A DNA stretch of 64,000 nucleotides, taken from positions 2,016,001-2,080,000 of the forward strand of contig OZ244799.1 in the NCBI GenBank assembly GCA_965219955.1. The letters run 5' to 3'. Positions within the stretch are counted from its first letter, which is position 1; the number at the start of each line of letters is the position of its first letter. A model generated the notes under the pieces. The model saw nothing but the letters and a program-made list of their open reading frames with translations, did no database searches and was not told the origin of the DNA. This stretch comes from a bacterium (GTDB lineage: Bacteria > UBA8248). Shown piece after piece: positions 17,183-22,430 of this stretch. Made by a program: the position numbers and the translations under genes.

Positions 17183-17545
17183 TTGGACTGGATAGGGGCG
17201 GGACTTCTGGTATTGGGCGCTATCGTGGGCACCTTGAACGCAGCCACCGGCGTGGGCTGGGGCATCATCGTGGTGCCGACGCTGTTCCTCATCCCCTCGC
17301 TCACGCCCCAGCAGGCGGTGGCGGTCTCGATTCTCGCCTACCTGTTCAACTCGCTGGTCGCCTCGTTCGAGAACGTGCGAGGCGGGCTAATTGTCTGGAA
17401 TTACGCGGTTTACCTGAGCATCGGCGCGGTCGTGGGCGGCGTAGTGGGTGCGCATCTGCTCCAGACCTTCTCGGCCCTCACGCTCAAGAGAATCGTGGGC
17501 GTGGCGGTGATAGCAGCGGGCGCGCAACTGCTCATCAACCGCTGA
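17183..17545 (+). CDS. Half-size TauE/SafE (sulfite exporter/TSUP) family membrane protein
   Basis: TTG start after AGGAG; GVGWGIIVVPTL...PQQAVAVS...GGVVGA; about 4 TM segments. Confidence 0.8.
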   Translation: MDWIGAGLLVLGAIVGTLNAATGVGWGIIVVPTLFLIPSLTPQQAVAVSILAYLFNSLVASFENVRGGLIVWNYAVYLSIGAVVGGVVGAHLLQTFSALTLKRIVGVAVIAAGAQLLINR

Positions 17546-17822: not shown

Positions 17823-18176
17823 TCAGCCCTCTCTTTCTTCTGAGCTTCCGGCGCGCTCGGGAGCGATTTCGTAAAGATAATCAAACGAATAGATGCCAGC
17901 CCCGCACCCGCCCCGCCAGATGAAGTTGATGGCGTAGCGCCCCACCATCTCGACGTTCTCAAGCTCAGTCGGCCCACTCGGCCCCGAGAGAACGGTGAGG
18001 GGGTTTTTCTCGCGCGCCTTGCGCTCCTCCTTGCAATTCGCGCACGGGCAAAGGGCTGCGAGATAATCGAATCCGTAGGCGCTCTTCTCTCCGCTCGCCC
18101 ACTCGACGCGAAACTCGCGGGCGGGCTTGTCCACCGTGAGATCGACGGGATGGGCCTTGTCGTCCAGTCCGCTCAT
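17823..18176 (-). CDS. DUF971 / GBBH-like N-terminal domain protein
   Basis: LCPCANC, VGRYAI..W and GIYSFDYL motifs. Confidence 0.85.
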   Translation of the reverse strand: MSGLDDKAHPVDLTVDKPAREFRVEWASGEKSAYGFDYLAALCPCANCKEERKAREKNPLTVLSGPSGPTELENVEMVGRYAINFIWRGGCGAGIYSFDYLYEIAPERAGSSEEREG

Positions 18177-18205: not shown

Positions 18206-18865
18206 TTATCTCGCCTTCATCCCGTATTTCTCGTACTTCTTGGACGAGGCGGTACCGAGCTTGGCGGATTGGGGCGTCTTGAGTTCGAGCAGCCAGGGCC
18301 GCTCGGCCGAGGTGGCCCGCACGGCGTCGAGGAGCCCCTGCTCATCGCCTTCGCTCTCCCAATCGCCCTCTTCGAGCTTCACGAAAACGGGTTTGCCCTC
18401 GCCGAAATCGAGCGTGGGAACGCCGAAAATGCCCTGCTCGGCCGCGTCCTCATGCTCTTGCGCGATGAGGGGGATGGTGGCGCCGCTTTTCATGTCCTCC
18501 TCCCAGCGTTCGACGTCCAAGCCCACTTCCACGGCGATATCGCGCAGAACCAGTTCACTGGTGATGTCCTTGCCGTCCTGGTGTCTCGCCCGGTGGAGCG
18601 CCACGTGGTATTTATCGAACTGCGTCTCGCCCTGCAAGGCAGCGCACTTGGCAGCCTGATGCGGGGGGAGATCCCTGCTCGGGAAGGTCTTGTCCTCCCA
18701 GGCCTTCCAGTCTTCGCCCCGCGAGGGGCCGAAATTCGCCTGCTCGAGCACGAAGGCCTTGTAATCCACTTTCAGATCGCTTCTTTTCTCCTGAAGACGA
18801 ACGAGCCACTCCATGGCTCTGTAGGCGTAGGGTCAGACGTAGCAGTTCCACATGGTGACGTTCAT
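18206..18865 (-). CDS. DsbA/FrnE-like thioredoxin-fold selenoprotein (Sec at codon 11, CYVU-PYA)
   Basis: AGGAG RBS + ATG 18865; MNVTMWNCYV-TGA-PYAYRAMEW is in frame with ORF 18206-18814; cis-Pro loop FGVPT; hairpin 13 nt after TGA. Confidence 0.82.
18803..18819 (-). promoter_or_regulatory. Putative bacterial SECIS hairpin
   Basis: GAGCCA-UGGAG-UGGCUC, 13 nt downstream of the in-frame UGA (18833-18835). Confidence 0.65.
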
Positions 18866-18973
18866 GATTTTCTCCTCAAGATGAGCCGTAAAGAGACATT
18901 GCGCGCCAATCATACACCACAAGAACACAGATGAAAAAGCAGCGCAAAATCTTTTGAAAACAGCCGAATTCCG

Positions 18974-19573
18974 CTAATTTTCCGGCGCGAGCGCCCTGTT
19001 CAACAGCGCCTCCGCACCCGCATCGAGAGAAAGCTCCCTGGCGGCCTCCTGCCCGCGCGCGGACATTTTTACCCAGGTTTTCCGCAAGATGCCGATGATT
19101 TTCTCCTCATCATGAAGCCGTGAAAAATCCCAGAAATAGCTTTCCAGAAACACCAGACAGGCGACGTCCTCGAGCATCTGGGTTTCCGGGCTTGATTTCA
19201 ATCTCTGTTTTTTCAACATCTTCCGCACCCGGGCTATCGTTTCCTCATCGTAACCCACCTCCTCAAGAATCCCGGCGGCTTTCTCCCCATGATAGTCGTA
19301 GAGGCGGGTCCGCCATTGGTGATACCCCTTTCGACCCAGAGGGTAATCCGAGCGAGGAATCTCCCATCTGCATATATGCTGGCTCCGAACAGCCAGACGA
19401 AGGGCCTCCGAGGCTTGCGGCTCGATGGTTTCGAGCCATCTCGTCATTCTCATCGAATACAAAAGCTCTTTGGGGTAATCCTCGCCCTCGAAACTCTCGG
19501 TATTCGGATCCTCGGAATTCGCTTCATCGATGAGACGCAGAGCATCTTCAAGACGTTTGGGATCTTCACTCAT
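18974..19573 (-). CDS. DUF4202 family protein
   Basis: IDEANSEDPN...LYSMRM...RSQHICRWEIPR..YP.GR.GY..WR...LEDVACLVFL. Confidence 0.85.
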   Translation of the reverse strand: MSEDPKRLEDALRLIDEANSEDPNTESFEGEDYPKELLYSMRMTRWLETIEPQASEALRLAVRSQHICRWEIPRSDYPLGRKGYHQWRTRLYDYHGEKAAGILEEVGYDEETIARVRKMLKKQRLKSSPETQMLEDVACLVFLESYFWDFSRLHDEEKIIGILRKTWVKMSARGQEAARELSLDAGAEALLNRALAPEN

Positions 19574-19749: not shown

Positions 19750-20559
19750 ATGTATCAAGGAAAAGTTCAGATTGTGGGAGCAGGCCCTGGAGATCCGGAC
19801 TTGCTTACACTCAAGGCGGCAAAAGCTCTCTCAAATGCAGACTTGGTGGTTTATGATCGTCTTGTGAACCCCGAAGTTCTTGAACTTTGCCCGGAAAACT
19901 GCCAACTCATCAATGCGGGAAAATCCAGCGGTCGACACACCATGAGCCAAGATGACATCAACGCAGCTCTAATCCATTTCGCTCAGCGCGGTTATCAAGT
20001 GGTGCGTCTAAAAGGCGGGGACCCTTTCGTGTTCGGTCGTGGCGGCGAGGAAGCGCAGGCACTGGCAGATGCCGGTATTGATTTTGAAATCATACCAGGC
20101 ATCAGTTCCGCTTTAGCTGTGCCCGCCTATGCCGGAATACCCGTCACACACCGAAAGCTCGCCTCGTCGTTCACGGTCGTAACTGCACATGAAGACCCCG
20201 GAAAACCAGAAACGCAAGTGGATTACGCGTACTTGGCGAAGAACAGGGGGACGCTTGTTTTCCTCATGGGCGCGCGCTCCATCGGACGCATATCATCCGC
20301 TTTGATGGAAAACGGCATGTCGAAAGACACGCCCGCCGCCATCATTGAAAATGGAACCACAAACAGGCAGTTGGCCTACCGATGTTCTTTGGAAGAAGCA
20401 TCCAGCCTCGCGCAACGCGAAGAAATATCCCCCCCCGCTGTTTTTCTCGTCGGACCCGTCGCCGGTCTTGAAGACCTCGTTTGGTTCGAGGCCGACGAGA
20501 GTCAAGAAATCTCCTGGCGCTGTTCCACGGAAGACCCCCTGAGCAAAGTCATTTCGTAA
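19750..20559 (+). CDS. cobA: Uroporphyrinogen-III C-methyltransferase
   Basis: VGAGPGDPDLLTLKA, RLKGGDPFVFGRGGEE and GIPVTHR motifs. Confidence 0.95.
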   Translation: MYQGKVQIVGAGPGDPDLLTLKAAKALSNADLVVYDRLVNPEVLELCPENCQLINAGKSSGRHTMSQDDINAALIHFAQRGYQVVRLKGGDPFVFGRGGEEAQALADAGIDFEIIPGISSALAVPAYAGIPVTHRKLASSFTVVTAHEDPGKPETQVDYAYLAKNRGTLVFLMGARSIGRISSALMENGMSKDTPAAIIENGTTNRQLAYRCSLEEASSLAQREEISPPAVFLVGPVAGLEDLVWFEADESQEISWRCSTEDPLSKVIS

Positions 20560-20627: not shown

Positions 20628-22430
20628 GTGATGCACGAAGAATCACGAAAACCATTGTCTCGGGAAACAGGCGTCATTCCGGTGATTCCCGAAGAATTCG
20701 ATGATTTTGAAACACAAGCCACCAGATTCCGAAACGGGGAACTCGATAACAGCGAGTTTCTCCCCTATCGCTTAAGGCGCGGCGTATATGGCCAGCGCCA
20801 GGCGGACGCACAGATGGTGCGCGTGAAAATTCCTTTCGGCGGCCTGAGCGCTTCCCAACTCGAAGCCCTGGGGCGTGTATCGCGTGATTACGTGCCGTTG
20901 GGAAAAGGTCACGTGACGACACGGGAAAACGTGCAGTTTCATTTCGTTCCTCTCGACCAGTCCGCCGATGTCCTGAGGCTTCTGGGCGAAGTAGGACTGA
21001 CCACGCGGGAAGCATGTGGAAATTGCGTGAGAAACGTCACCGGTTGTCCCTATGCGGGCGTTTGCAAGGATCAGGTTTTCGACGCTACTCCCTATGCAGG
21101 CGCATTTGCGCGTTACTTCGTCCGCAGAGATTTCACACAGGACCTGCCGCGCAAATTCAAGGTGGCGTTCTCGAGTTGCGCTTCGGACTGCGTGGTCGGC
21201 GGAATTCATGACATCGGGTTCATCCCGGTTATCAAGGAGATGGAAGGAACTCCCGTGCATGGCTTCAAGATGCTTGTCGGAGGCGGACTCGCTACTTTCG
21301 CGCGTACCGCCGAGGTGCTTTACGAGTTCGTTCCGGTGTCCGATTTCCTGAGGGTGAGTGAAGCCCTCATCCGGGTTTTCGACCAGGCTGCTGAACTTCG
21401 CAAATCCCGCTTCAAGGCGCGCATCAAGTTCCTCGTAAGCTGGATAGGGATAGACGGGCTGCGAGAACGCGTCGAGGAAGAACTCAAAAAGGACTGGGCG
21501 AAAGATCCCGTCAGTCCCGAACCTTATCTTTGGAAAGATGATGAAGAAACCGACGCTCCACCCGTCTTGAATACCCTGAACGGGGCGGGAGCCAGCCCGA
21601 ATGGCGACGCTGCGGATTATCACGCCTGGAGAAAAACGAACGTCACCGCACAGAGGCAAGAAGGCTACTTCGCCGTCGATGTAAAACTCCCGTTGGGGAA
21701 CATCCATACGGATCAGTTCTTCGCCCTGGCCGACCTCACCCGGCGTTTCGCGAGAGGGCGCGCAAGAACGAGTTTCGAGCAAAACCTCGTGCTCAGGTGG
21801 GTGCGCGAAGGCGAACTTTACCCCCTCTGGAAAGAGCTTCAGAGAATCGGGCTCGCCGAAAAAGGGGCCAGAGAGATATCCGACGTGGTTTCCTGCCCGG
21901 GAACGGATTCATGCAAACTCGGCATCACCTCTTCCATGGGCCTGGCAAACGCCATTCGTGAAACACTTCATGAGATTGATCAGGATCCTCTTACGCGGGA
22001 GATGCACATCAAGATGAGCGGTTGCCCGAATTCCTGCGGGCAACACCACATCGCCAACATCGGGTTTCACGGGGGGACGCTCAAGGCGAACGGCGCGATG
22101 CTGCCCGCTTATGAAATTTTCCTCGGCGGTCAATACGATGGCACCGACGGAGAAATCCGCATCGGAAAACGCATCCAGGTTCGGATTCCGGCAAAACGCG
22201 TTCCTGCTGCACTCAAGAAAATGTTGTCCCACTACCAGGAAAACAGAAACGAGAGCGAGCGATTCAGCGAGTTTTTGGATCGTGTGGGGAGTGCGTCCTT
22301 TGAAGACTTGCTGCAGGAGTTTCACCTGGCCGGTCAGTTCAACGACGAGCCCGATTCCGATTTGTTCATCGACTGGAGTCAGGACAGGCAATACGTTCTG
22401 GAAAGAGGAGAAGGCGAATGCCTGGCCTAG
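20628..22430 (+). CDS. Siroheme-dependent sulfite/nitrite reductase (Sir/NirA type)
   Basis: GVYGQRQ, TTRENVQ, LPRKFK, SCPGTDSCKLG and SGCPNSCGQH motifs; C-terminal GEGECLA. Confidence 0.92.
   Translation: MMHEESRKPLSRETGVIPVIPEEFDDFETQATRFRNGELDNSEFLPYRLRRGVYGQRQADAQMVRVKIPFGGLSASQLEALGRVSRDYVPLGKGHVTTRENVQFHFVPLDQSADVLRLLGEVGLTTREACGNCVRNVTGCPYAGVCKDQVFDATPYAGAFARYFVRRDFTQDLPRKFKVAFSSCASDCVVGGIHDIGFIPVIKEMEGTPVHGFKMLVGGGLATFARTAEVLYEFVPVSDFLRVSEALIRVFDQAAELRKSRFKARIKFLVSWIGIDGLRERVEEELKKDWAKDPVSPEPYLWKDDEETDAPPVLNTLNGAGASPNGDAADYHAWRKTNVTAQRQEGYFAVDVKLPLGNIHTDQFFALADLTRRFARGRARTSFEQNLVLRWVREGELYPLWKELQRIGLAEKGAREISDVVSCPGTDSCKLGITSSMGLANAIRETLHEIDQDPLTREMHIKMSGCPNSCGQHHIANIGFHGGTLKANGAMLPAYEIFLGGQYDGTDGEIRIGKRIQVRIPAKRVPAALKKMLSHYQENRNESERFSEFLDRVGSASFEDLLQEFHLAGQFNDEPDSDLFIDWSQDRQYVLERGEGECLA

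What the first reader, a model, noticed from the sequence alone, without database searches (positions are those of the whole stretch)
18206..18865. DsbA/FrnE-like selenoprotein with a rearranged active site: C-x-x-U-P-Y-A
Seen: RBS-ATG then MNVTMWN-C-Y-V-TGA-P-Y-A-Y, in frame with a 202-aa DsbA-like ORF that otherwise lacks a redox motif; a 6-bp hairpin with a G-containing loop starts 13 nt after the TGA. Known: the family motif is D-x-x-C-P-x-C, and bacterial Sec insertion uses a hairpin just 3' of UGA. Here Sec takes the attacking Cys position, the resolving Cys is Ala, and a Cys replaces the conserved Asp. Inference: a peroxiredoxin-like CxxU register on a DsbA scaffold, probably co-transcribed with DUF971.
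Basis: partly seen in the sequence, partly recalled or inferred. Interest (0 to 1): 0.75.

Follow-up and report, generated by a model that had tools for sequence, protein, structure and literature searches.

The report
DsbA-like selenoprotein with shifted CxxU site
This is a real, previously mis-annotated selenocysteine-containing enzyme of the DsbA (thioredoxin-fold) type whose redox pair has moved one turn along the chain, and it is almost always encoded next to a small protein linked to iron-sulfur cluster upkeep.

Summary
On the minus strand (18865..18206) a 219-codon DSBA-domain gene carries an in-frame TGA at codon 11, giving C8-Y-V-U11-P-Y-A14. The genome has tRNA-Sec, selA, selB and selD. 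The TGA sits at the same codon in 33 of 41 related genomes, in 49 of 49 genome-collection loci and in 71 of 80 metagenome loci. The other 9 metagenome loci have TGT or TGC, which is the classic Sec/Cys pair.

A 7-bp hairpin with a GGA loop starts 13 nt after the UGA. It is held at synonymous sites and is eroded in every Cys form.

Gapless alignment with a sister clade (D-x-x-U-P-W-C), FrnE (D-x-x-C-P-W-C) and DR2335 (D-x-x-C-P-Y-A) puts Sec at the attacking-Cys position. It puts Ala at the resolving position and Cys in place of the Asp. An AlphaFold model (pLDDT 90.5) places U11 at the N-cap of helix 1.

The Ala is shared with a large single-Cys branch of the family; the −3 Cys and the Sec are specific to this clade. 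A DUF971 gene follows 17-47 nt downstream in most loci.

Best reading: a cytoplasmic selenol/thiol oxidoreductase that uses a relocated C8–U11 couple. It is a new variant of the known DsbA-like selenoproteins. Public protein records truncate it at Met18.

The parts
18909..18937 (-). Weak sigma-70-like promoter match (TTTTCA-17-TATGAT) in the 108-nt gap after the upstream DUF4202 gene
   Evidence: 9 of 12 matches. This is a consensus match only, not evidence of function.
18872..18877 (-). Shine-Dalgarno GAGGAG, 6 nt before the ATG
   Evidence: Read directly.
18206..18865 (-). Full selenoprotein CDS: 219 codons plus TAA, DSBA-like thioredoxin domain
   Evidence: PF01323, 68.2 bits. AlphaFold model with pLDDT 90.5. 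Best PDB fold match is DR2335, 7dk9, TM 0.76-0.80. Relatives have stop codons directly upstream of the Met1 codon, which fixes the start.
18842..18844 (-). Codon 8, TGC: Cys at −3 from Sec, replacing the family's conserved Asp; proposed resolving thiol
   Evidence: Cys in 30 of 30 loci and 49 of 49 loci. Asp, or Asn/Glu in one row each, in all 55 rows outside the clade in the tree set.
18833..18835 (-). Codon 11, TGA: selenocysteine, at the position of the attacking Cys of C-P-x-C
   Evidence: The model puts strand 1 at residues 2-7 and the start of helix 1 at residue 12.
18824..18826 (-). Codon 14, GCC: Ala at the position of the resolving Cys
   Evidence: Alignments.
18803..18819 (-). bSECIS-like hairpin GAGCCAU-GGA-GUGGCUC, overlapping codons R16-A-M-E-W-L21
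18644..18646 (-). Codon 74, Cys in the AAKCAALQGE motif. It is shared with the D-x-x-U-P-W-C sister clade but is not universal in the CxxU clade.
   Evidence: Nearly invariant in A2. It is Ser in L099 and in the soil-type subclade.
18416..18418 (-). Codon 150, Pro of the G-V-P-T loop (the cis-Pro loop position of thioredoxin folds)
   Evidence: Invariant in the 46-row alignment A2. The cis conformation itself was not tested.
17823..18176 (-). DUF971 / GBBH-like_N gene (117 aa, C-P-C-A-x-C ... C), 29 nt downstream on the same strand; the only DUF971 in the genome
   Evidence: PF06155 at 64.4 bits. Adjacency. Single genomic copy.

Best explanation
The gene encodes a cytoplasmic thioredoxin-fold (DsbA-like) selenoenzyme with no signal peptide. 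UGA at codon 11 is decoded as selenocysteine by SelB and tRNA-Sec, guided by the hairpin 13 nt downstream. Sec11 sits at the N-cap of helix 1, the place of the nucleophilic Cys in C-P-x-C, and attacks an oxidised substrate such as a disulfide, mixed disulfide, sulfenate or peroxide. The canonical resolving Cys (+3) is Ala, as in the single-Cys DR2335-like branch. Instead, Cys8 at −3, in the strand-1/helix-1 loop, closes an intramolecular selenenylsulfide, giving a C-x-x-U couple shifted one turn toward the N-terminus. The couple is then re-reduced by a cellular reductant. The enzyme works together with the co-encoded DUF971 protein, a Cys-rich protein tied by others' fitness data to Fe-S cluster maintenance, probably as its substrate or partner. 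What is shown: the gene, the Sec codon, the hairpin, the fold, the motif register and the gene linkage. What is inferred: the C8-U11 bond, the substrate and the link to DUF971 function.
For: Sec decoding:
- tRNA-Sec at 75.9 bits, anticodon TCA.
- selB 390 bits, selA 578 bits, selD 332.7 bits.
- Orthologues with the in-frame TGA in 33 of 41 genomes, down to 49% identity.
- Same codon in 30 of 30 loci and 49 of 49 loci; these two sets overlap in genomes.
- In a metagenome scan that allowed TGN at codon 11, 80 loci were read out of 98 matches: 71 TGA, 8 TGT, 1 TGC.

Hairpin:
- 99% of 301 cells are paired; the Ala17 codon is GCC in 43 of 43 sequences while the Ala14 codon varies GCC/GCT/GCA.
- 37 of 39 distinct TGA forms keep all 7 pairs, against 0 of 6 distinct Cys forms.

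TGA is not reassigned: 10 of the 49 loci end this same gene with TGA.

Register: gapless alignment with D-Y-x-U-P-W-C, FrnE and DR2335; helix 1 starts at residue 12.

Cys8:
- Present in every clade member seen, including the Cys-form fragments P0074 and P0134.
- Absent from all 55 rows outside the clade in the tree set.
- The other conserved Cys (C74) is Ser in a large subclade, leaving C8 as the only universal partner.

DUF971:
- Follows at 17-47 nt in 39 of 49 genome loci and in 43 of the 55 metagenome loci with room to judge.
- It is the sole copy in the genome.
- The Fe-S maintenance inference comes from cofitness data (bioRxiv 10.1101/072470, passage read).
Against: - No coordinates of the model were available, so the C8-U11 distance and geometry are unmeasured.
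- The relocation of the Cys is a single evolutionary event, so its coupling to Ala14 cannot be tested statistically.
- The closest solved relative (DR2335) and the whole single-Cys branch have no known function (PMC8945050, passage read).
- 10 of 49 genome loci and 12 of 55 metagenome loci lack DUF971 downstream. These include 7 of the 8 Cys-form loci that had room to judge.
- The single-sequence hairpin energy is not unusual.
- There is no direct evidence of selenium incorporation or of the protein itself. The RNA-library contigs do not prove transcription.
Confidence: 0.58

Rival explanations
1. Mono-selenol enzyme. Sec11 is the only catalytic residue, as the lone Cys presumably is in DR2335-type relatives (or Ser in kappa-GST/HCCA isomerase). 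The selenenylsulfide formed with substrate is resolved by an external low-molecular-weight thiol or a partner protein. Cys8 has a structural, pKa-tuning or regulatory role.
For: The family branch it belongs to works without a second active-site Cys: D-x-x-C-P-x-[AVST] in the 45 full-length Cys-type rows I picked from the 150 listed hits, and DR2335. Fold matches include GSH-dependent DsbM, HCCA isomerase and kappa GST.
Against: Cys8 is invariant in all clade members, including the Cys forms (*). It replaces an otherwise near-universal Asp only in this clade. (*The pattern required Cys8, so that scan adds nothing on this point.)
Confidence: 0.22
2. Metal or Fe-S site. Cys8 and Sec11, at a strand-loop-helix junction, ligate a metal ion or an Fe-S cluster. 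They hand it to, or receive it from, the Cys-rich DUF971 protein, so the protein is a selenium-containing chaperone rather than an oxidoreductase.
For: There is a conserved operon with the genome's only DUF971. DUF971 carries invariant C-P-C-A-x-C plus a fourth near-invariant Cys. [quoted passage not shown] Weak N-terminal profile matches to copper-resistance DsbA-like chains (6nen, 6mhh).
Against: No metal-binding family is matched. The Sec/Cys exchange and the C-P-x motif are typical of redox sites. No binding test could be run.
Confidence: 0.12
3. Not a selenoprotein. TGA terminates a 10-codon leader peptide and the real product is the 202-aa ORF from Met18 (as public annotations have it), or the gene is a pseudogene or sequencing error.
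For: All 38 database homologues are annotated from Met18 or later.
Against: The 17 upstream codons are conserved as protein with synonymous changes. They supply strand 1 and the active-site turn of the fold. The same TGA recurs in dozens of independent assemblies. Cys-codon relatives read straight through. An RNA-library contig 96% alike (503 nt, all 19 of its differences listed) keeps TGA.
Confidence: 0.03

Closest known systems
DsbA-like selenoprotein 'form 1' (UxxC): Sargasso Sea family (PMC1088965, Table 3 read; PMC13188914, Table 1 read)
   Same: Same Pfam domain (PF01323), with Sec at the first position of the C-P-x-C site followed by Pro, and a SECIS hairpin just 3' of UGA. The window's own genome carries such a canonical paralogue, D-F-L-U-P-W-C (L221).
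   Different: This protein has Ala instead of the +3 Cys and Cys instead of the −3 Asp. It also has an extra about 30-residue C-terminal tail (…LLELKTP…) and a roughly 20-residue deletion in the helical domain. It is linked to DUF971, which the paralogue is not.
DsbA-like selenoprotein 'form 2' (DxxUP, crotonase fusion): PMC13188914, Table 1
   Same: PF01323 domain and a U-P dipeptide. The motif as listed names no +3 Cys.
   Different: This protein has Cys, not Asp, at −3. It is a single 219-aa domain with no crotonase/enoyl-CoA hydratase part. I did not see a form 2 sequence, so its +3 residue is unknown to me.
DR2335 of Deinococcus radiodurans (PDB 7dk9/7dka) and the single-Cys DsbA-like branch
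   Same: Best fold match (TM 0.76-0.80, 25-26% identity) and best sequence match (E=2.4e-20). It shares the C/U-P-Y-A-[WY]-R motif and the E-[IL]-K-x-P tail. It is cytoplasmic.
   Different: DR2335 has Cys rather than Sec, and Asp at −3, so it has no second active-site thiol. No function or expression data have been reported for it (PMC8945050 and PMC6300522, passages read).
FrnE / Rv2466c / DsbM cytoplasmic DsbA-like reductases
   Same: Same fold and the same D-x-x-C-P-[WF]-C frame (FrnE alignment; fold hits).
   Different: They are dithiol C-P-x-C enzymes. FrnE has an extra C-terminal CxxxxC relay (PMC8945050). They contain no Sec.
Peroxiredoxin TxxC/TxxU register
   Same: The nucleophile sits at a helix N-cap with a functional residue at −3. 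Sec forms listed as TxxU, and a CxxU 'Prx-SUH', appear in PMC13188914 Table 1.
   Different: No peroxiredoxin family (PF00578) appears among the Pfam hits at E≤0.01. The fold subclass differs (DsbA type with a helical insert). Peroxidase activity is untested.

Membership tests
Bacterial selenoprotein gene (SelB/SECIS-dependent UGA decoding) | In-frame UGA conserved among orthologues | tested here: met
   33 of 41 genomes; 30 of 30 loci; 49 of 49 loci; 71 of 80 metagenome loci.
Bacterial selenoprotein gene (SelB/SECIS-dependent UGA decoding) | Cys-codon homologues at the Sec position | tested here: met
   9 of 80 metagenome loci have TGT or TGC. Cys-form fragments P0074 and P0134. L111 is the Cys form of the sister clade.
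Bacterial selenoprotein gene (SelB/SECIS-dependent UGA decoding) | Stem-loop immediately 3' of UGA with a small apical loop containing G (criterion as worded in PMC1088965; the numeric spacing limits of bSECISearch are recalled, not seen) | tested here: met
   A 7-bp stem with a GGA loop, 13 nt after UGA. It is conserved with covariation and degraded in Cys forms. bSECISearch itself was not available.
Bacterial selenoprotein gene (SelB/SECIS-dependent UGA decoding) | selA, selB, selC and selD in the genome | tested here: met
   all are above their curated cut-offs.
Bacterial selenoprotein gene (SelB/SECIS-dependent UGA decoding) | Selenium actually incorporated into the protein | not testable with these tools
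   This needs 75Se labelling or mass spectrometry.
DSBA-like thioredoxin domain (PF01323) | Profile match above the gathering score | tested here: met
   68.2 bits against 25.6.
DSBA-like thioredoxin domain (PF01323) | Thioredoxin fold with an inserted helical domain | tested here: met
   Model at pLDDT 90.5. Foldseek hits to DR2335, Rv2466c, FrnE and DsbA at E from 2.4e-12 to 1e-5.
DSBA-like thioredoxin domain (PF01323) | C-P-x-C dithiol active site at the start of helix 1 | tested here: not met
   The site reads U-P-Y-A. The second thiol lies at −3 instead.
DsbA-like selenoprotein form 1 (UxxC) | Sec at position 1 and Cys at +3 | tested here: not met
   Sec is present, but +3 is Ala in 49 of 49 loci.
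DsbA-like selenoprotein form 2 (DxxUP, crotonase fusion) | Asp at −3 and fusion to a crotonase-family domain | tested here: not met
   Cys at −3. The protein is 219 aa with only DSBA/thioredoxin-type Pfam hits.
Single-Cys DR2335-like DsbA branch | [C]-P-[YFW]-[AVST] with no +3 Cys, plus the E-[IL]-K-x-P C-terminal tail | tested here: met
   This holds with Sec in place of the Cys. In the tree, however, the clade pairs with the U/C-P-W-C clade (SH-aLRT 90, quick search, midpoint root), so its exact placement is unsettled.
Single-Cys DR2335-like DsbA branch | Asp at −3 and a single active-site Cys | tested here: not met
   Cys at −3.
Peroxiredoxin | AhpC/TSA-type domain (PF00578) with PxxxTxxC | tested here: not met
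   No peroxiredoxin family appears among the Pfam hits at E≤0.01.

The most novel reading that the evidence does not exclude
The C8/U11 pair is not primarily a redox couple. It is a selenolate/thiolate ligand pair that, together with the four conserved cysteines of the co-encoded DUF971, holds or repairs an Fe-S cluster or a metal ion. That would make it a selenium-dependent Fe-S maintenance module, functionally analogous to the monothiol glutaredoxin-BolA pair, and it would give DUF971 its first biochemical partner.
Probability: 0.12. Interest if true: 0.75.

Novelty: new variant of a known kind. Interest (0 to 1): 0.5.

Why it matters
It adds a third active-site architecture, C-x-x-U-P-x-A, to the known DsbA-like selenoproteins. 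It is also a natural example of a thioredoxin-fold redox pair being rebuilt in a different register after the canonical resolving Cys was lost.

The family is widespread: sponge, marine, groundwater and soil metagenomes, with 98 metagenome matches. Yet all 38 public protein entries found are truncated at or after Met18, so the active site is missing from the databases.

The tight linkage to DUF971 gives a concrete, testable handle on two proteins of unknown biochemistry: DR2335-type DsbA-like proteins and DUF971.

The paired Sec and Cys forms, with an intact hairpin in one and a decayed hairpin in the other, make a clean teaching case of SECIS constraint inside a coding sequence.

Tried and rejected
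Whether the two proteins bind therefore stays untested.
- An Rfam scan of 18600..18950 gave only sub-threshold chance hits. None of the hits was a SECIS family, so this says nothing either way.
- Single-sequence folding of the 71 nt after the TGA: z=0.42. This is not informative on its own.
- A longer lower stem (A14-U35, C15-G34 with a bulged A16; centroid) is not kept in relatives, judged by eye from alignment A3. Rejected.
- C74 as the resolving partner. It is Ser in L099 and in the large soil-type subclade, whose sequence reads …HEAVKSVLA…. Rejected as a universal partner.
- General TGA reassignment (to Trp or Gly). Rejected, because 10 of 49 loci terminate this same gene with TGA and the Sec machinery is complete.
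- The search of earlier findings by place and by sequence returned nothing.
- BSepDB (PMC13326102). Its held supplement is only a genome list, so I could not see whether this gene is already filed there. Its tblastn Sec/TGA method could well have caught it under 'DsbA-like'.
- Paper searches for prior description: 'DsbA-like'+selenoprotein+selenocysteine, Nitrospin*+selenoprotein, DR2335, selenoprotein+DxxUP and DUF971. None describes a C-x-x-U-P DsbA-like form. Subscription-only literature was not searched.
- RNA-library runs X15, X16 and X18 are contigs only, so depth, transcript ends and strand could not be read.
Full report
**1. What is in the sequence**

The feature lies on the minus strand. 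A GAGGAG Shine-Dalgarno (18877..18872) is followed after 6 nt by ATG (18865..18863). The reading is M-N-V-T-M-W-N-C-Y-V-TGA-P-Y-A-Y-R-A-M-E-W-L…, in frame to TAA at 18208..18206. Under table 11 only the 202-aa ORF from Met18 is listed.

With TGA read through, the 219-aa product matches Pfam DSBA (PF01323) over residues 3-154 at E=1.1e-18, 68.2 bits against a cut-off of 25.6. NCBIfam gives only a weak sub-threshold hit to a thioredoxin-like (seleno)lipoprotein model (29.3 bits against a cut-off of 190).

The hairpin GAGCCAU-GGA-GUGGCUC (18819..18803) begins 13 nt after the UGA.

**2. Is the TGA a selenocysteine codon?**

The window's genome (one 4.28-Mb contig) has all four parts of the machinery:
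- tRNA-Sec, 75.9 bits against a cut-off of 47, called tRNA-SeC with anticodon TCA by ARAGORN.
- selB, 390 bits.
- selA, 578 bits.
- selD, 332.7 bits, itself with one in-frame TGA.

In 41 genomes of the same genus-to-domain neighbourhood, 33 hold a full-length orthologue with the in-frame TGA, down to 49% identity. In the 30 loci fetched, the TGA is at the same codon in 30 of 30, within an invariant C-Y-V-U-P-[YF]-A-Y-R.

A scan of one genome per species gave 49 orthologous loci (L053-L101). Their records are labelled Nitrospinota, Nitrospinaceae, Tectomicrobia and a few 'Deltaproteobacteria/Thermodesulfobacteriota' MAGs. All 49 have TGA there. This set overlaps the previous one in genomes.

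TGA is not generally reassigned, because 10 of these 49 loci terminate the same gene with TGA.

A metagenome scan used a pattern that fixed Cys8, Pro12, Ala14 and E-W but left codon 11 as TGN. It matched 98 stretches. Of the 80 fetched, 71 have TGA, 8 TGT, 1 TGC and none TGG. These Sec/Cys pairs occur among close relatives, for example …WNCYVUPYAWRAAEWL… beside …WSCYVCPYAWRGAEWL…. That is the classical signature of a true selenoprotein. Because the pattern demanded C8 and A14, this scan is informative only about codon 11.

**3. The hairpin**

In 43 distinct sequences (the window plus 42 from L053-L101) the seven proposed pairs are formed in 99.0% of 301 cells.
- Pair 23-27 is C-G 18, U-G 14 and U-A 11, never C·A.
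- Pair 18-32 alternates G-U and A-U.
- 1 of 500 column shuffles reaches the observed pairing or covariation. Sliding the partner by ±1-3 drops pairing to 38-48%.
- Four of the seven pairs never vary, so they say nothing by themselves.

Synonymous sites are more telling. The Ala17 codon inside the stem is GCC in 43 of 43 sequences, whereas the Ala14 codon three codons earlier varies GCC/GCT/GCA. The Arg16 codon always ends in a purine, which pairs with U32.

Among the metagenome loci, 37 of 39 distinct TGA forms keep 7 of 7 pairs. None of the 6 distinct Cys forms does (five have 6 of 7, one has 5 of 7). The Cys forms also show Arg codons ending in C or T, Ala17→Gly, and loss of the first loop G. 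So the structure is maintained only where UGA must be decoded.

By itself, the window's 71-nt fold is not unusually stable (z=0.42). Rfam returned nothing relevant.

**4. Expression hints**

Contigs assembled from three metatranscriptomic libraries lie on the region at 90-99% identity.
- One 1278-nt contig covers 17844..18865, that is DUF971 and the whole selenoprotein gene up to its ATG.
- A 503-nt contig covers 18423..18925. All 19 of its differences are listed and none touches 18833..18835, so the TGA is kept in that relative.
- Shorter contigs bridge the intergenic gap.

The tool warns that DNA can be present in RNA libraries and that a contig across two genes does not show a single transcript. 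This is consistent with expression and co-transcription but does not prove either.

**5. Register of the motif**

A 46-row alignment (A2) places the clade's W-N-C-Y-V-U-P-Y-A-Y-R-A without gaps against a sister clade reading Y-S-D-Y-L-U-P-W-C-Y-P-A. That sister clade comprises 11 loci with TGA and one, L111, with TGT. Y9, U11 and P12 are invariant across both clades.

A profile search of PDB sequences aligns the same columns to FrnE (…IWSDIACPWCY…) and to DR2335 (…LYFDFLCPYAWRG…).

The AlphaFold2 model built on A2 (pLDDT 90.5, pTM 0.85) has strand 1 at residues 2-7 and helix 1 starting at residue 12. U11 is therefore the helix N-cap residue, the place of the nucleophilic Cys of thioredoxin-fold C-x-x-C sites (this last point is established knowledge). 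C8 is in the preceding loop.

**6. Where the protein belongs**

Foldseek's best PDB matches are the DsbA-like protein DR2335 of Deinococcus radiodurans (7dk9/7dka; TM 0.76-0.80, 25-26% identity, E≈1e-12). After it come Rv2466c, FrnE, YjbH, DsbM, HCCA isomerase, classical DsbAs and kappa GST.

An exhaustive search of 1.84 billion representatives found 514 relatives at E≤0.001. I fetched the 59 of the 150 listed hits whose match starts near the query's N-terminus. Nearly all read D-[YF]-x-C-P-[YFW]-[AVST] with an E-[IL]-K-R-P tail. This is a large single-Cys branch to which DR2335 belongs. Reviews state that no functional data exist for it (PMC8945050 and PMC6300522, passages read). The missing resolving Cys is therefore not a peculiarity of this protein.

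I built a quick maximum-likelihood tree of 76 rows:
- 31 rows came from the window and the loci.
- 45 rows were full-length Cys-type representatives.
- Fragments and the other listed hits were left out.
- The root is at the midpoint only.

The tree shows the C-x-x-U clade as monophyletic (SH-aLRT 90). It is sister to the D-x-x-U/C-P-W-C clade (joint support 90), and both lie among D-x-x-C-P-x-A lineages. Cys at −3 occurs in all 21 rows of the clade and in none of the 55 others.

Features are mixed. The L-E-Q-x-N, W-K-x-W-E and tail motifs are shared with the single-Cys branch. AAKCAALQGE (C74) is shared with the C-P-W-C clade. Whether Ala14 was inherited or re-evolved is therefore open.

C74 is Ser in L099 and throughout the large soil-type subclade. 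That leaves C8 as the only universally conserved potential partner of U11.

**7. Genomic context**

A 117-aa DUF971/GBBH-like_N gene (PF06155, 64.4 bits) follows 29 nt downstream on the same strand.
- It follows at 17-47 nt in 39 of 49 genome loci.
- It follows in 43 of the 55 metagenome loci that have enough downstream sequence. A further 25 had no room and 12 have something else.
- It is retained even where the DUF971 is only 26-32% identical.
- It is the only PF06155 match in the window's genome.
- Its alignment keeps C-P-C-A-x-C invariant and a fourth Cys nearly invariant.

Of the 8 Cys-form loci with room to judge, only 1 has DUF971 downstream. This is a small sample and is left unexplained.

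Loci lacking DUF971 show other neighbours: a full-length TauE/SafE permease in L097, and a HugZ-like gene and a transposase-like ORF in L091.

The canonical paralogue of the selenoprotein in the same genome (D-F-L-U-P-W-C; L221) has no DUF971 beside it.

**8. Mechanism**

What is shown: Sec decoding signals, the fold, the nucleophile position, the invariant −3 Cys, the absent +3 Cys and the linkage to DUF971.

What is inferred: Sec11 attacks an oxidised substrate, and Cys8 resolves the adduct as an intramolecular selenenylsulfide, a C-x-x-U ring shifted by three residues from the canonical C-P-x-C. An external reductant then recycles it. DUF971, or Fe-S client proteins, are the likely substrates.

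I put about 0.95 on 'true selenoprotein at the attacking position'. I put about 0.55-0.6 on the relocated couple and about 0.4 on a functional tie to Fe-S maintenance. The rivals are a mono-selenol mechanism with external resolution (0.22), a metal or cluster ligand pair (0.12), and no Sec at all (0.03).

**9. Novelty**

DsbA-like selenoproteins have been known since the Sargasso Sea study (UXXC, nine sequences; PMC1088965, Tables 1-3 read). A 2026 review lists form 1 (UxxC) and form 2 (DxxUP, crotonase fusion) and no C-x-x-U-P form (PMC13188914, Table 1 passages read).

BSepDB reports that MAGs of GTDB phylum UBA8248 labelled Nitrospinota/Nitrospinae carry 48-54 selenoprotein genes each. One of the MAGs it names bears the same isolate label as the record behind L078 (PMC13326102, Table 2 passage). 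Its tblastn Sec/TGA method may already have captured this gene under 'DsbA-like'. I could not check, because the held supplement is only a genome list.

All 38 homologues in the 5.8-billion-protein collection begin at Met18 or later, and those that carry a name are called hypothetical or 'protein-disulfide isomerase-like'. No NCBIfam model covers the family.

I rate it a new variant of a known kind. It is interesting for the register shift, the clean Sec/Cys-with-SECIS-decay contrast and the DUF971 linkage. It is not a new principle.

Noticed in passing
own genome, L221:2152-2808 (+) = G000:C1 about 1217651-1218307: A second DsbA-like selenoprotein gene of the canonical type (M-D-N-A-P-V-R-F-T-V-Y-S-D-F-L-U-P-W-C-F…). 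It is annotatable under table 11 only from a later GTG. PF01323 scores 80.9 bits. Both active-site architectures therefore coexist in one genome.
   Followed up: partly
own genome, L019 = G000:C1:2942487-2943449 (−): The selD match carries one in-frame TGA, so this is probably a Sec-containing selenophosphate synthetase.
   Followed up: no
related genomes, e.g. G013:C4:3654998-3655537, G018:C140:15969-16508, G014:C1:2100889-2101431: A third, weakly similar DsbA-like frame (about 230 aa open frame, 1 in-frame TGA, 28-31% identity) lies about 45-50 kb from the orthologue in several same-genus genomes. It was not found with this query in the window's genome.
   Followed up: no
window 17183..17545 (+): A half-size TauE/SafE-family ORF (120 aa, matching profile positions 1-110 of 237), convergent with the DUF971 gene. 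Reading through its TGA stop gives no further similarity. A full-length TauE gene sits directly downstream of the selenoprotein in L097.
   Followed up: partly
window 18974..19573 (−), 19750..20559 (+), 20628..22430 (+): The neighbours are DUF4202 (256.6 bits), a tetrapyrrole methylase (PF00590) and a nitrite/sulfite reductase with 4Fe-4S/sirohaem domains (PF01077, PF03460). DUF4202 and the methylase travel with the selenoprotein gene in most same-genus loci.
   Followed up: partly
metagenome loci L123, L136, L140, L146, L164, L169, L177 against L195: Cys forms of the protein mostly lack the downstream DUF971: 7 of the 8 with room to judge. Two of them (L164, L169) go out of frame after about residue 65.
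   Followed up: no
L090-L094, L101, L148-L150: One subclade has an extra Cys three residues further upstream (T-C-Y-V-C-Y-V-U, a C-x-x-C-x-x-U ladder). It lacks DUF971 downstream.
   Followed up: no
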